The notes below the pieces were generated by a model that ran no database searches, was not told the DNA's origin, and worked only from the letters and a program-made list of their open reading frames with translations. Source: an uncultured Verrucomicrobiae bacterium (GTDB lineage: Bacteria > Verrucomicrobiota > Verrucomicrobiia > Chthoniobacterales > Terrimicrobiaceae). Taken from it: a stretch of 64,000 nucleotides of DNA. Every line of letters begins with the position of its first letter. Within the stretch, counting starts at the first letter, position 1. Position numbers and translations under genes: made by a program. The DNA is taken from positions 50,086-114,085 of the forward strand of contig CAVPOC010000007.1 of the NCBI GenBank assembly GCA_963706955.1. Reading direction: 5' to 3'. Of the stretch, positions 29,517 to 33,125 are shown piece after piece.

Positions 29517-31646
29517 ATGTCTCATTCCGTTACGGCCACTGTTGGCCAAACCTCCATCACCATTGAAACAGGCAAGCTGGCGCGACTCGCCGATGGTGCA
29601 GTTACAATTCGCTCCGGGGAGACCATTGTTCTCGTCTCCGCTGTTTCCGCGACGACCGTTAAAGAAGGTCAGGATTTCTTTCCACTTACTGTTGATTATC
29701 GGGAGAAAGCGGCGGCGGTTGGAAAATTTCCCGGCGGCTATTTCAAACGAGAAGGGCGTCCTTCGGAGAAGGAGACGCTTACCTGTCGGATGACGGACCG
29801 CCCGTTGCGGCCCCTCTTTCCGAAAGGCTATCTTTACGACACGCAGATTATCGGCGTTCTGCTGAGCGCCGACGGCGAACACGATCCCGATATGCTCTTT
29901 ATCAATGGTGCCAGTGCGGCGCTTTGCGTCTCGGACGTTCCGTTTGCCGGGCCCGTGGGTGCGGTTCGCGTCGGCCGTGTTGATGGCGAGTTTATCGTCA
30001 ATCCGATGCACAGTCAGCGCGCTACGAGCGACCTAGATCTTGTCTACGTGGGAACAGAGGACCAGGTGGTAATGATTGAAGGCGAAGCCAAAGAGATTTC
30101 TGAGGCCGACTTCGTCGCGGCGTTGGCTTTCGCGCATGAAGAGGTCCGCCACCTCATCGCCGCGCAACAGGAACTGATGGTCGCCGCTGGAAAACCAAAG
30201 CGCCAGGCAGCGCTCTTCGTTGTTCCTGACGAACTTCTCGAGATCGCCTATCGCGTCGCCGGCGATCGCATCGAAGCGGCGCTCTACACTCCCAGCAAGG
30301 TCGCTCGGCAAAAAGCGGTCGAGGCGCTCAGAGATGAGGTCGACGCGGCCATCCTGGAAACCTATCCCGAAGCGACGAAGTTCGAGATCAGCCAGGCTTT
30401 TGATTACCTGCAGAAGAAAGCGTTTCGGATCAGTATTCTCGACAAGAAGATCCGGTGTGATGGACGCAGCTACGAGCAAATCCGTCCCCTGAGCGCCGAG
30501 ACAGGCCTTCTTCCCAGAAGTCACGGCAGCGCCCTTTTTCAACGGGGCGAAACCCAAGCCATCTGCCTGGCGACGCTGGCGCCTGCCGATGAAGCTCAAG
30601 AGCTCGACGGCTATACGGGCGGAGAAACCAGTAAGCGCTTTATCCTCCACTATAACTTTCCGCCGTTCAGTGTCGGTGAAACTGGCCGCACGGGCAGCCC
30701 TGGCCGCCGGGAGATCGGCCATGGAGCGCTTGCCGAGCGGAGCATCGCGCCGGTCATTCCTGAGGTCAGTGAATTCCCCTATGCCATTCGTGTGAGCAGC
30801 GAGATCATGGAATCGAACGGCTCGAGCTCCATGGCCAGCGTCTGCGCCGGTGTTCTCGCGCTGATGGATGCAGGTGTTCCCATCAGCAAGCCGGTCGGCG
30901 GGATCAGCTGCGGGCTCGTCACTGAATTCAGTGGCGACGTGATTTCGCGCTATACGTTGCTAACGGACATTATTGGCAGCGAGGATTACTTCGGCGATAT
31001 GGACTTCAAGTTATGCGGCACGGAAAGCGGCATCACAGGCTTCCAACTTGACCTCAAGCTTGCCGGAATTCCGCTCAAGCTTATGGAGGAAGCGATTTAT
31101 CGCGCCCGAGACGCGCGTTTCGAAGTGCTCAAGGTGATGAATCTCGCTCTCGACGCTCCGCGCGCCGAGTTAAGCCCATACGCGCCCCGGATTGAGACCA
31201 TTCGGATCAAGCCGGACAAGATTGGACTGGTCATTGGCCCAGGCGGCAAGACGATCAAAGGGATCGTGGCGGAGACTGGCGCAGAAATTAATATCGAAGA
31301 TGATGGTTCGATTCATATCTATTCGAGCAGCGGTGAGAGCCTCAAACGAGCCAAGGAAATTATCCTGGGCATGACCAAAGAAATTGCCGTTGGTGAAGTC
31401 TACCAGGGGACCGTTGTCTCAACCAAAGAGTTCGGCGCCTTCGTCGAAGTTCTTCCCGGCAAGGACGGCCTTTGTCACATTTCGGAGCTCGCCGACTTTC
31501 GTGTGAACAGGACCGAGGACGTTGTCAAAGTCGGCGATACCATCTGGGTTAAATGTATCGGTGTCGACGACAAGGGACGCGTCAAACTCAGCCGCAAGGC
31601 TGCCATGAAAGATCGCGACGCCAAGGCGGCCGGACTCGCTGCCTAG
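29517..31646 (+). CDS. pnp: polyribonucleotide nucleotidyltransferase
   Basis: DFFPLTVDYREK, RREIGHG.LAER, ESNGSSSMAS, GDMDFK, KH and S1 domains; follows rpsO. Confidence 0.98.
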   Translation: MSHSVTATVGQTSITIETGKLARLADGAVTIRSGETIVLVSAVSATTVKEGQDFFPLTVDYREKAAAVGKFPGGYFKREGRPSEKETLTCRMTDRPLRPLFPKGYLYDTQIIGVLLSADGEHDPDMLFINGASAALCVSDVPFAGPVGAVRVGRVDGEFIVNPMHSQRATSDLDLVYVGTEDQVVMIEGEAKEISEADFVAALAFAHEEVRHLIAAQQELMVAAGKPKRQAALFVVPDELLEIAYRVAGDRIEAALYTPSKVARQKAVEALRDEVDAAILETYPEATKFEISQAFDYLQKKAFRISILDKKIRCDGRSYEQIRPLSAETGLLPRSHGSALFQRGETQAICLATLAPADEAQELDGYTGGETSKRFILHYNFPPFSVGETGRTGSPGRREIGHGALAERSIAPVIPEVSEFPYAIRVSSEIMESNGSSSMASVCAGVLALMDAGVPISKPVGGISCGLVTEFSGDVISRYTLLTDIIGSEDYFGDMDFKLCGTESGITGFQLDLKLAGIPLKLMEEAIYRARDARFEVLKVMNLALDAPRAELSPYAPRIETIRIKPDKIGLVIGPGGKTIKGIVAETGAEINIEDDGSIHIYSSSGESLKRAKEIILGMTKEIAVGEVYQGTVVSTKEFGAFVEVLPGKDGLCHISELADFRVNRTEDVVKVGDTIWVKCIGVDDKGRVKLSRKAAMKDRDAKAAGLAA

Positions 31647-32785
31647 TGCAGTCTAACGCATTGATATAAGATACGCGAGGTGTCAGAGTCAATGAGTGAA
31701 CGACAAGAAAGTAGTGATTAGTCCGCGTGAACGCAGAGAACTGAGCCGGCGGGTTCGGTCTCGAACGATAGGAGCCGAGGATGCCCCACGCGCTCAAGTT
31801 ATTCTTGCGCTGGGCTCGGGGCTTGGAGTGAGTGCGGTAGCAGGCATGCGTAGGTGTAGTTCCTCTTATGTGCAGCGCTGGAGAGAGCGTTTTATGGCAA
31901 GCCGTCTGGCGGGACTGGTGGCCCGTCATCAAGGTCGCAAACTGCGGCACGATGCCGCGAAGCTTGAGGCACGCATTTTGGAGTGGACCCGACGTGGCGC
32001 TCAGGACGGAACCACCGACTGGAGCAGCCGTCGGTTGGCCGTCGCGCTTGGCACCAATCACATGACCGTTTCGCGGGTTTGGGCTCGGCACGGCCTTCAA
32101 CCTTACCGGTTGCGCCGTTACATGCTGAGCGAGGATCGCGACTTCGAGAAGAAGGCCGCCGACATTATCGGCCTTTATCTGAACCCTCCTGATCACGCCG
32201 CCGTCTTTTGCGTAGACGAAAAGACTGCAATCTAAGCCCTGGACCGCCTGGATCCGGTGCTGCCCCTTTCTCCCGGCAGAGCCGAGGCTCACGGTTTTGA
32301 GTATTACCGCCATGGAACTCTTTCTCTTTACGCGGCTCTTAATACGCGAAGCGGAGAAATCCTTGGTAAGACGGCTCAACGCCATACGAGCACGGAGTGC
32401 GACGACTTTCTTGCCCAAGTGATGGCCTCTCAGCCCCTCGGACGTCAGATCTACGTCATCGCTGATAATCTCTCGGCCCATAAAACCAAACTCGTCGATG
32501 ACTTTCTGGCTTATCATTTTTAAGTTTGTATTTATTTTATGTTTATTTATTTTTTTTGGTTTAATTAAGTCGAAATCTGGTTCGCCAAAGTTTGAGAGCG
32601 CGCGAGATCAAGGTCATAGAGCAGAGCGCATCGCACATCTTCGGCTCGCCGGTCTATGGCTGAGGCTTATGCGTTACATCAAGGCGTTACATCGAGACGG
32701 ATACTACAATCTAAAGGGTGCTAACTATGTAGAAAACCATACGAACCTATAGCGTGAGATCGTTCAACTGTTACAGCTGCACTAG
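31643..32785 (+). mobile_element. IS630-family insertion sequence, inactivated
   Basis: Ends CTAGTGCAGTCTAAC ... GTTACAGCTGCACTAG (imperfect inverted repeats, CTAG at both ends). Transposase motifs WSSRRLA, DFEKKAADIIGLYLNPP.HAAVFCVDEK, YYRHGTLSLYAAL, IADNLSAHKT. Confidence 0.92.
31696..32756 (+). pseudogene. IS630 transposase pseudogene
   Basis: CAA>TAA stop at 32233 (KTAI*ALDR), C-free tract 32516-32570 with two more stops, and an indel-rich 3' end still showing LMRYIKA. Confidence 0.9.
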
Positions 32786-32828
32786 TACGCGGATAGTTTG
32801 TAAGAACTACAAGCCGCAATCGACGAGC

Positions 32829-32888
32829 TGTAGGGGCACTTGCGTCAAGCGCCCAGCGAATCCAGAGGCGCTTGGCACAAGCGCCTTC
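32829..32888. repeat. REP doublet, family 2 (GTRG-AGGCGCTTG-NNN-CAAGCGCCT)
   Basis: TGTAG GGGCACTTG CGT CAAGCGCCC agcgaatccag AGGCGCTTG GCA CAAGCGCCT. Confidence 0.75.
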
Positions 32889-32904
32889 TCCCATGACTGA
32901 ATGG

Positions 32905-33090: not shown

Positions 33091-33101
33091 TTTCTTTCGT
33101 C

Positions 33102-33125
33102 AGGCGCTTGGCACAAGCGCCTCCA
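33102..33125 (-). repeat. single family-2 REP
   Basis: AGGCGCTTG GCA CAAGCGCCT CCA, same palindrome as at 32866 and 54567. Confidence 0.75.

What the first reader, a model, noticed from the sequence alone, without database searches (positions are those of the whole stretch)
32516..32570. Complete, strand-specific C-to-T conversion tract inside an IS630 transposase
Seen: 55 consecutive nt without a C in a GC-rich window, in frame with the transposase: ttt taa gtt tgt att tat ttt atg ttt att tat ttt ttt tgg ttt aat taa gtc gaa atc tgg ttc. Known: IS630 transposases carry HFTPTYSSWLNQVE-WF at this point, just after DNLSAHK. Changing only T back to C restores P-Q-V-R-I-H-F-T-P-T-Y-S-S-W-L-N-Q-V-E-I-W-F with no indel. 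That needs 9 C>T changes in the conserved motif and about 13 overall, while every G is retained. Converted Cs follow A, C, G and T, so there is no obvious context preference. The separate stop at 32233 is also CAA>TAA. Inference: one processive cytosine-deamination event on exposed ssDNA (kataegis/RIP-like), or gap synthesis without dCTP. It could be the footprint of an undescribed anti-transposon editing mechanism. No deaminase gene is visible in this window.
Basis: partly seen in the sequence, partly recalled or inferred. Interest (0 to 1): 0.9.

Follow-up and report, generated by a model that had tools for sequence, protein, structure and literature searches.

The report
C-to-T tract in one garbled IS630 copy
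The cytosine-free stretch is really in the sequence and did come from C-to-T changes, but it sits in a newly inserted jumping gene that is garbled along its whole length and seen in no other data, so it is more likely a sequencing or assembly fault than a new anti-transposon editing system.

Summary
Observation confirmed and sharpened. 32516-32570 is the longest C-free run in the 4.16-Mb genome (55 nt; next longest 41). Against an intact paralog on contig C4, 21 of 23 cytosines in 32510-32570 read T and 0 of 38 other bases differ.

The tract is not an isolated edit. It lies in a 1,137-bp IS630 insertion (31646-32782, flanked by a duplicated TA). Soil metagenome contigs from three runs carry the empty site. 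Apart from its own private changes, this copy is identical to the paralog. It carries about 100 private substitutions and about 24 inserted bases. Their type changes by segment: pyrimidine transversions, then C>T plus C>G, then pure C>T, then a scrambled 3' end. The lesions stop at the element's borders.

No other data set examined holds any of these changes. No other of 108 repeat pairs in the genome shows anything similar. The assembly demonstrably contains consensus errors. No toxin-type DNA deaminase was found.

Best reading (about 0.58): the consensus of a poorly supported, minority insertion allele, reflecting miscalls or one damaged molecule. Main rival (about 0.27): a real, polar, one-strand hypermutation of a freshly transposed element. 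Raw reads, which I could not see, would decide.

The parts
29517..31646 (+). 709-aa ORF upstream of the insertion (polynucleotide phosphorylase by my reading of its sequence; not run against a family library). Its TAG stop lies in the CTAG target site.
   Evidence: ORF list; sequence.
31644..31645 (.). Left copy of the duplicated TA (CTAG at 31643-31646).
   Evidence: Contigs of X1, X2 and X13 join 31642 to 32782, skipping 1,139 = 1,137 + 2 bases, with 5 letters fitting both sides.
31646..32782 (+). IS630-family element, 1,137 bp. It is a strain-specific insertion and a broken copy of the C4 element.
   Evidence: 95% identity to G000:C4:170076-171009. The paralog's 346-aa ORF matches NF033545 IS630 transposase at 243 bits (cut-off 100) and DDE_3. 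Terminal inverted repeat CTAGTGCAG/CTGCACTAG (I9). Empty site in metagenome contigs.
31646..31670 (+). Left terminal repeat with private lesions: G>C at 31653 and an inserted CG at 31657-31658.
   Evidence: Alignment of 9 copies.
31696..32235 (+). N-terminal transposase fragment (179 aa) ended by TAA at 32233-32235 (CAA in the paralog). It carries 15 private substitutions before that stop, 13 of them transversions.
32233..32510 (+). Middle segment with 11 private substitutions: C>T 5, C>G 3, T>G 1, T>A 1, G>A 1. The last 65 nt (32446-32510) are unchanged.
32511..32566 (+). C>T tract: 21 C>T changes and no other change. One C stays at 32515 inside the tract, and 32510 just before it is also unchanged. 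The C-free run is 32516-32570.
32567..32589 (+). Unchanged island of 23 nt. Its 5 cytosines (32571-32586) are all kept.
32590..32757 (+). Scrambled 3' part, collinear with the paralog. 99 of 146 aligned bases are identical, 22 bases are inserted and 0 deleted. No single reading frame is kept. It includes a 13-nt tandem repeat at 32671-32696.
   Evidence: alignment score 61.5 against a shuffle mean of -15.8, sd 8.9; D6.
32758..32782 (+). Right terminal repeat with a private T>A and one inserted A.
32783..32784 (.). Right copy of the duplicated TA (CTAG at 32782-32785). The flank from 32782 on is identical to metagenome contigs.
   Evidence: table 8: records 6, 16 and 24 show 0, 1 and 0 other letters over 121, 245 and 241 bases.

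Best explanation
The tract is real in the deposited sequence and its Ts were once Cs. It is most likely not a heritable edit made by the cell.

Shown:
- An IS630 element identical to the C4 copy inserted at a CTAG just behind the upstream ORF.
- The allele without the insertion is what public soil metagenomes carry.
- The inserted copy alone carries about 100 private substitutions and about 24 extra bases.
- The type of change differs by segment.
- The lesions stop at the element's borders.
- The assembly contains consensus errors elsewhere.

Inferred: in a long-read-type metagenome assembly, the draft path went through a minority molecule that carried the insertion. The many reads from cells without the insertion corrected the flanks but could not correct the 1.1-kb insert. 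The insert therefore kept the letters of one or very few reads. Those reads either suffered direction-consistent miscalls (C read as T, then C as A, A as G, and extra bases), or came from a template strand that was physically damaged, with cytosines deaminated to uracil and read as T.

On this reading the true insert equals the C4 element, and the 'editing footprint' is a property of a molecule or a read, not of the lineage.
For: 1. All changes are private to this copy. After removing them the copy is identical to the C4 paralog, which itself has only 2 private changes. The seven other copies, from three genomes, carry 0-69 private substitutions, spread over the element except in G076_C4.
2. 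The spectrum is not natural and differs by segment. In 31661-32510 there are 7 transitions to 19 transversions, against 6,618 to 5,060 in the genome's other repeat pairs (p = 0.003). Next come 21 pure C>T changes. Next come C>A 15, A>G 11 and T>A 5, with 22 insertions and 0 deletions.
3. Of 127 private alignment columns, 100 lie in the last quarter of the element, and both terminal repeats are hit. The right flank matches metagenome contigs with 0-1 differences over 121-245 nt.
4. The insertion is polymorphic. An empty-site joint was seen in 3 of the 4 runs laid.
5. There is no independent support.
   - None of the 24 listed runs holds more than 0.23 of the sampled words.
   - 29 of the 48 private positions appear among the 40 rows shown, and every one carries the paralog's letter; 143 further rows were not shown.
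   - No contig covers 32626-32733 in any of the 4 runs.
   - Exact-pattern scans for the tract gave 0 hits in metagenome contigs and in genome contigs, and a scan for a stretch of the scrambled part gave 0 hits in metagenome contigs.
6. The assembly has consensus errors. Contig ends C14:1-8332 and C6:1-8332 are two versions of one region that differ by 145 substitutions and 14 single-base indels, and each version breaks different ORFs.
7. The event is unique. Among 108 repeat pairs, the longest run of one substitution type is 22 here and at most 5 in the other 107.
Against: I never saw the reads behind this assembly. Coverage, platform and assembler are therefore all inferred.

48 substitutions with no indel over 932 nt is unlike random long-read error. 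So is a 56-nt stretch in which only C changes, always to T, while every A, G and T stays in place. I know of no documented basecalling fault that produces this, and one literature search on nanopore reading of uracil and deamination found none.

Other young IS pairs in the same genome are clean, with 0.3-1.2% differences, so poor polishing is not general.

The strand bias outside the tract (16 changes at C against 3 at G, p = 0.004; 22 at pyrimidines against 4 at purines, p = 0.0006) is what one-strand DNA damage in a cell would also give.
Confidence: 0.58

Rival explanations
1. A real, heritable, one-off hypermutation of a freshly transposed IS630 copy. The + strand became single-stranded from the right end inwards. 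This could follow transposase cleavage at the right end and 5'-3' resection, or happen on the excised intermediate. A patch was saturated by a context-independent ssDNA cytosine deaminase, such as an SsdA-like toxin from a competitor, or by sulfite-type chemistry. The complementary strand was then refilled by a very error-prone polymerase. The result would be a polar gradient of lesions confined to the element.
For: - 21 of 23 cytosines are converted, in all four preceding-base contexts, with no indel and sharp borders.
- Changes outside the tract also sit on + strand pyrimidines (22 against 4).
- Lesion density rises towards the right end, where a transposase would cut.
- SsdA deaminates ssDNA cytosines preceded by any base (PMC7901873, passages read; PMC12494967, abstract read).
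- Confinement to the element follows naturally if the damage hit the excised transposon.
Against: - A deaminase explains only 26 of the roughly 100 substitutions. C>G, C>A, T>A and A>G changes, plus 22 insertions at 32% divergence, need further and very exotic steps.
- DddA-induced mutations showed no clustering in the genomes of surviving cells (PMC7901873).
- No toxin-type deaminase family was found in the genome. PF14431 gave no match and its control rang. PF14428, PF14424 and PF14432 gave no match, but their controls rang nowhere, so those three are uninformative.
- There is no second case in the genome.
- There is no independent sequence support.
Confidence: 0.27
2. Ordinary evolution: an old, decayed pseudogene copy, or a mosaic whose 3' end came from a distant IS630 relative.
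For: The 3' 190 nt align to the paralog at only about 70-75%. IS630 copies in sister genomes differ by 3-12%.
Against: - The copy shares none of the natural variants that separate the other eight copies. Every difference is private.
- The insertion is young, because the empty site is what the metagenomes carry.
- The 3' part is collinear with the paralog but keeps no reading frame.
- No closer relative of the 3' part was found in 101 genomes of the family, where the best match was 77%.
- An exact 30-mer from the scrambled part was not found in JGI metagenome contigs.
- A run of 22 identical substitutions cannot arise by drift.
Confidence: 0.03
3. A dedicated targeted-mutation system: a diversity-generating retroelement, repeat-induced point mutation guided by homology, or local DNA hypermodification that is misread as T.
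For: The lesions are limited to a repeated element, as in RIP. Adenines are often changed in the last segment (18 of 53).
Against: - A DGR changes only adenines of the template repeat. Here C is the main target and segments 1-3 have only 1 A change.
- RIP mutates both copies by C>T/G>A only. Here the partner copy has 2 private changes, and the spectrum includes transversions and insertions.
- Nothing similar appears in 107 other repeat pairs.
- I did not search for a reverse transcriptase.
Confidence: 0.04

Closest known systems
Unpolished minority-allele insertions and low-coverage consensus errors in long-read metagenome assemblies
   Same: The lesions are confined to a strain-specific insert and the flanks are perfect. 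There is no support in other data. The same assembly has error-laden contig ends. An earlier scan note (e1-4078448) describes a one-strand C-to-T stretch in a strain-specific insert, in a badly assembled region of another genome.
   Different: A base-specific C>T run without indels is not a documented error mode that I could find (search). The platform and the reads of this assembly are unknown to me.
Bacterial ssDNA deaminase toxin SsdA (BaDTF2) and dsDNA toxin DddA
   Same: C-to-T changes. [quoted passage not shown]
   Different: Toxin-induced mutations in survivors were scattered without clustering (DddA; PMC7901873). Here a single 56-nt patch is saturated and comes with transversions and insertions. 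No such toxin gene was found in this genome.
APOBEC/AID kataegis and hypermutated retroviral DNA
   Same: Strand-coordinated clusters at cytosines, with C>T plus C>G and C>A, and a polarity that could reflect how long the DNA stayed single-stranded (comparison recalled, not from a call).
   Different: Those enzymes have TC, CC or WRC preferences (recalled), and none is seen here. They are eukaryotic. T>A, A>G and insertion lesions are not part of that signature.
Repeat-induced point mutation (RIP) of fungi
   Same: C>T changes limited to a duplicated mobile element, which creates stop codons.
   Different: RIP hits both copies, prefers CpA and gives transitions only (recalled). Here one copy is untouched, every context is hit and half of the changes are transversions.

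Membership tests
IS630 family insertion sequence | DDE transposase of the IS630 family | tested here: met
   The paralog's 346-aa ORF matches NF033545 at 243 bits (cut-off 100), and Pfam DDE_3 and HTH_23. The window copy is the same gene, broken.
IS630 family insertion sequence | TA duplication at a CTAG-type target (feature recalled from ISfinder descriptions) | tested here: met
   The empty-site joint skips 1,139 = 1,137 + 2 bases. CTAG is present on both sides here and around all 8 other copies.
IS630 family insertion sequence | Terminal inverted repeats | tested here: met
   31643-31651 and 32777-32785 are 100% complementary (I9). Both repeats carry private lesions further in.
Deaminase-driven strand-coordinated hypermutation (APOBEC/AID-like or SsdA-like) | Changes at cytosines of one strand only, as C>T | tested here: inconclusive
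   Met inside 32511-32566 (21 of 21 changes). Not met for the element as a whole: the pairwise comparison counts 26 C>T among 48 changes up to 32592 and 4 among 49 in the 3' part.
Deaminase-driven strand-coordinated hypermutation (APOBEC/AID-like or SsdA-like) | A DNA cytosine deaminase available to the cell | tested here: not met
   Only TadA, RibD and two generic dCMP_cyt_deam_1 proteins were found. PF14431, PF14428, PF14424 and PF14432 gave no match, and controls for the last three rang nowhere. The genome is 92.5% complete, and a toxin could come from another organism.
Deaminase-driven strand-coordinated hypermutation (APOBEC/AID-like or SsdA-like) | The mutation is present in replicating DNA of a lineage (several molecules, both strands) | not testable with these tools
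   No run holds the private words. The source reads were not available.
Repeat-induced point mutation | Both repeat copies mutated, transitions only, dinucleotide preference | tested here: not met
   The C4 copy has 2 private changes against 100 in the window copy. 48 of those 100 are transversions. All four preceding bases are hit.
Diversity-generating retroelement | Adenine-specific differences between a template repeat and a variable repeat | tested here: not met
   Changes at A number 2 of 48 up to 32592 and 18 of 49 in the 3' part, where C (21) is hit as often. A reverse transcriptase was not searched for.

The most novel reading that the evidence does not exclude
A newly transposed IS630 copy was hit, in one event and on one strand, by a polar mutational catastrophe that started at its right (cleaved) end. 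The steps would be resection to ssDNA, saturation of a 56-nt patch by a context-independent ssDNA cytosine deaminase, and refilling by an extremely error-prone polymerase. This would be the first natural footprint of kataegis-like, element-confined hypermutation of a transposon in a bacterium, and a possible trace of an unknown anti-transposon defence or of interbacterial deaminase attack in soil.
Probability: 0.22. Interest if true: 0.8.

Novelty: not a real feature. Interest (0 to 1): 0.3.

Why it matters
If the tract were a heritable edit, it would show that bacteria, or their competitors, can saturate a stretch of a transposon with C-to-U changes. That would be a bacterial counterpart of RIP or APOBEC restriction, which has not been described.

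The evidence instead points to a poorly supported insertion allele in an error-containing metagenome assembly. The practical lesson is that base-specific 'conversion tracts' inside strain-specific inserts of MAGs need read-level support before any biology is read into them. This scan has now met such a case at least twice (this one and e1-4078448), so a systematic look at the raw data of both would be worthwhile.

Tried and rejected
- Public runs: 20 of 24 listed runs hold part of 32200-32900, but none holds more than 0.23 of the sampled words. By my estimate that share matches the right flank plus the IS stretches that are identical to the paralog. I could therefore inspect neither the source sample nor any read carrying the tract. 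In the four runs laid, no contig covers 32626-32733.
- Exact scans: the 65-nt tract and a 30-nt piece of the scrambled part gave 0 hits in JGI metagenome contigs. A 48-nt piece of the tract gave 0 hits in 185,579 species genomes. Records of the window's own genome may be left out of these scans.
- Exact protein look-up of the three broken ORFs: none is in the collection. This is weak evidence, because two of them start at GTG and such fragments may never have been called as genes.
- Recurrent process in this genome: rejected.
  - The other long C-free or G-free runs (41-48 nt) are an A/C-rich leader in front of a start codon, an AT-rich spacer and an ordinary coding stretch. They are not conversions.
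  - None of the other 107 repeat pairs has a same-type run longer than 5.
- Templated origin of the inserted bases: repeat search inside 31600-32900 gave only a 13-nt tandem repeat (32671-32696) and short chance matches.
- G076_C4, a copy in a sister genome, has 13 of its 15 private lesions in the same last quarter, but they are mostly small deletions. It is not the same phenomenon.
- Literature: searches for bacterial RIP-like or IS hypermutation and for clustered deaminase-toxin mutations listed no report of a comparable natural tract. Searches for a matching long-read artefact also listed none. I read only listings and abstract starts, plus passages of PMC7901873 and the abstract of PMC12494967.
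- Earlier scan notes near this place and in look-alike stretches: nothing to show.

Full report
**What is there.** The last C before the tract is at 32515 and the next is at 32571, so 32516-32570 is 55 nt without C. GC drops to 0.27 in 32500-32599. In the whole 4,155,808-base genome (15 contigs; the window is C7:50086-114085) this is the only C-free run of 50 nt or more. The next longest is 41 nt and the longest G-free run is 48 nt. Base composition predicts about 0.01 runs of 55 nt or more. The other long runs are an A/C-rich leader before a start codon, an AT-rich spacer and a normal coding stretch.

**The element.** The tract lies in a broken transposase gene (ORF fragments 31696-32235 and 32257-32523).
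- The genome holds one close paralog, C4:170062-171181, which is 95% identical over window 31659-32592.
- The paralog's 346-aa ORF is intact and matches NF033545 'IS630 family transposase' at 243 bits (cut-off 100), and Pfam DDE_3.
- The window element runs from 31646 to 32782 (1,137 bp), between CTAG sites and with terminal inverted repeats (I9).
- Contigs of three of the four soil-metagenome runs that I laid join 31642 directly to 32782. They skip 1,139 bases (the element plus a 2-base duplication), and 5 letters fit both sides.
- The right flank in those contigs differs from the window at 0, 1 and 0 of 121, 245 and 241 positions.
- The insertion is therefore genuine (a target duplication exists), young and polymorphic, and the empty site is the allele seen in public data.

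**The tract against the paralog.** In 32510-32570 the paralog has 23 cytosines. Of these, 21 read T in the window (32511-32566), and 32510 and 32515 stay C. None of the 38 other bases differs (p = 2e-14).
- Converted cytosines follow C (10), T (5), G (3) and A (3).
- The next 5 cytosines (32571-32586) and the previous 65 nt (32446-32510) are untouched.
The count is 21, not about 13.

**The rest of the element.** The tract is one segment of a copy that is damaged throughout.
- Ungapped comparison of 31661-32592 gives 48 differences over 932 nt and no indel: C>T 26, C>G 7, C>A 4, T>A 4, T>G 2, G>C 2, A>G 2, G>A 1.
- By segment:
  - 31661-32232 has 15 changes, 13 of them transversions and none C>T.
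  - 32233-32510 has 11 changes (C>T 5, C>G 3, and one each of T>G, T>A and G>A), including the CAA>TAA stop at 32233.
  - 32511-32566 has 21 changes, all C>T.
- Outside the tract, changes hit C 16 times against G 3 times (p = 0.004) and pyrimidines 22 times against purines 4 times (p = 0.0006).
- Transitions to transversions are 7:19, against 6,618:5,060 in the genome's other repeat pairs (p = 0.003).
- From 32590 the alignment degrades. In 32590-32757, 99 of 146 aligned bases are identical, 22 bases are inserted and none deleted. The stretch is still clearly collinear with the paralog (score 61.5 against a shuffle mean of -15.8, sd 8.9).
- Over 32571-32786 the spectrum is C>A 15, A>G 11, T>A 5, C>T 4, A>T 4 and A>C 3, with G almost never changed (2 of 34).
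- No reading frame survives there.
- Both terminal repeats carry private lesions: G>C and an inserted CG on the left, T>A and an inserted A on the right.

**Polarity and privacy.** I aligned the window copy with the C4 copy and seven full-length copies from three other genomes of the genus. These came from 14 of 101 family genomes with any match, and they align to C4 end to end at 88-97%.
- I counted a change as private if at least 6 of the other 8 copies agree and none shares the variant.
- The window copy has 100 private substitutions, 26 inserted columns and 1 deleted column. Of these 127 columns, 100 lie in the last quarter.
- The C4 copy has 2 private changes.
- The other copies have 0-69. 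Apart from G076_C4, discussed below, their changes are spread over the element, and the G061 copies are transition-rich.
- Once its private lesions are removed, the window copy is identical to the C4 element, so it carries no ordinary divergence at all.
- In the metagenome contigs, 29 of the 48 private positions appear among the 40 rows shown, and every one carries the paralog's letter. A further 143 rows were not shown.

**Is it recurrent or independently supported?** No.
- Among 108 repeat pairs of at least 300 nt in the genome, the longest run of one directed substitution type is 22 for this pair and at most 5 for the other 107.
- None of the 24 listed public runs holds more than 0.23 of the sampled words of 32200-32900.
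- No contig covers 32626-32733 in the four runs laid.
- Exact scans for the tract and for a piece of the scrambled part found nothing in JGI metagenome contigs, and the tract was not found in 185,579 species genomes.
- The broken ORFs are not in the protein collection (weak evidence, see Tried and rejected).

**Quality of the assembly.** Contig ends C14:1-8332 and C6:1-8332 are two versions of the same region. They differ by 145 substitutions and 14 single-base indels, mostly outside homopolymers, and each version breaks different ORFs. The assembly therefore contains stretches of uncorrected consensus. Other young IS pairs in the genome are clean, with 0.3-1.2% differences, so the window copy is a special case and not the norm.

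**Deaminases.** PF14437 matched four places.
- One is TadA (NF008113, 183 bits).
- One is RibD (TIGR00326, 328 bits).
- Two are generic dCMP_cyt_deam_1 proteins of 212 and 226 aa.
- A motif scan of 22,805 ORFs added nothing credible.
- PF14431 gave no match, and its control rang in Bacillus subtilis.
- PF14428, PF14424 and PF14432 gave no match, but their controls rang nowhere, so those three say little.
- The genome is 92.5% complete, and a toxin could be delivered by another organism.

**Interpretation.** Two readings fit the confinement of roughly 125 lesions to a young insert.

*(a) Artefact (0.58).* The draft path of a long-read-type metagenome assembly ran through a minority molecule that bore the insertion. 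Reads from empty-site cells corrected the flanks but not the insert. The insert therefore keeps the letters of one or a few reads, either miscalled or taken from a damaged strand with uracils.
- This reading explains the segment-wise, direction-consistent changes.
- It explains the insertion-only 3' end and the hits in both terminal repeats.
- It explains the perfect flanks, the uniqueness and the absence from all other data.
- Its weakness is that I could not see reads.
- A further weakness is that an indel-free, C-only conversion is not a known error mode to me or in the searches I ran (listings only).

*(b) Real event (0.27).* A single polar catastrophe struck the + strand of a freshly moved element: resection from the cleaved right end, saturation of an ssDNA patch by a context-independent deaminase of the SsdA type, then very error-prone refilling.
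- SsdA's lack of context preference fits (PMC7901873 passages; PMC12494967 abstract).
- However, toxin mutations in survivors were unclustered (DddA; same paper).
- A deaminase also accounts for only about a quarter of the changes.

Ordinary divergence or a mosaic origin (0.03), and DGR-, RIP- or modification-type systems (0.04), fail specific tests listed in the membership table.

**Verdict.** The inference that the Ts derive from Cs is confirmed. The finding is most likely not a biological feature. Because the raw reads were out of reach, a real hypermutation event keeps roughly a one-in-four chance and would be remarkable. This scan has noted one similar case before, in other DNA (e1-4078448).

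Noticed in passing
window 32832-32885 and about 33098-33120: Palindromic REP-like units (GGCGCTTGGCACAAGCGCC type) just right of the insertion. The same units reach very high summed depth in soil metagenome contigs (up to 374 in X13) and show many alternative joints, so they are a widespread small repeat family.
   Followed up: partly
G000 C14:1-8332 and C6:1-8332 (outside the window): Two contig ends are reverse-complement versions of one 8.3-kb region at 98.1% identity, with 145 substitutions and 14 single-base indels. Each version breaks different ORFs. This is redundant assembly with uncorrected errors or two strains.
   Followed up: partly
G000 C4:165916-167232 against C4:169638-170066 plus 171176-172068: The intact IS630 paralog is itself inserted into a second copy of another repeat of about 1.3 kb (99.3-99.7% identical to the intact copy). 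The IS630 element has therefore been active recently in this genome.
   Followed up: no
L028 (G076:C4:89500-91200) against L029 (G076:C8:62500-64200): Two otherwise identical IS630 copies in a sister genome. One has 15 private lesions, 13 of them in the last quarter and mostly 1-3-nt deletions. These are probably consensus errors or early decay.
   Followed up: partly
G000 C1:127610-128245 (L031:1291-1926): A 212-aa zinc-deaminase-fold protein (dCMP_cyt_deam_1, 80.8 bits) that stays below the TadA cut-off (69.7 against 150 bits). Its substrate is unassigned.
   Followed up: partly
G000 C8:499015-529482 against C8:1046528-1088030: A segmental duplication of about 30 kb within one contig at 83-89% identity. 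It could be a paralogous gene cluster, two related mobile elements, or a binning or assembly join of two relatives.
   Followed up: no
G000 C8:848055-848102: A 48-nt G-free, A/C-rich leader directly in front of an ATG. It is the longest G-free run in the genome and may be an unstructured translation-enhancing 5' leader.
   Followed up: no
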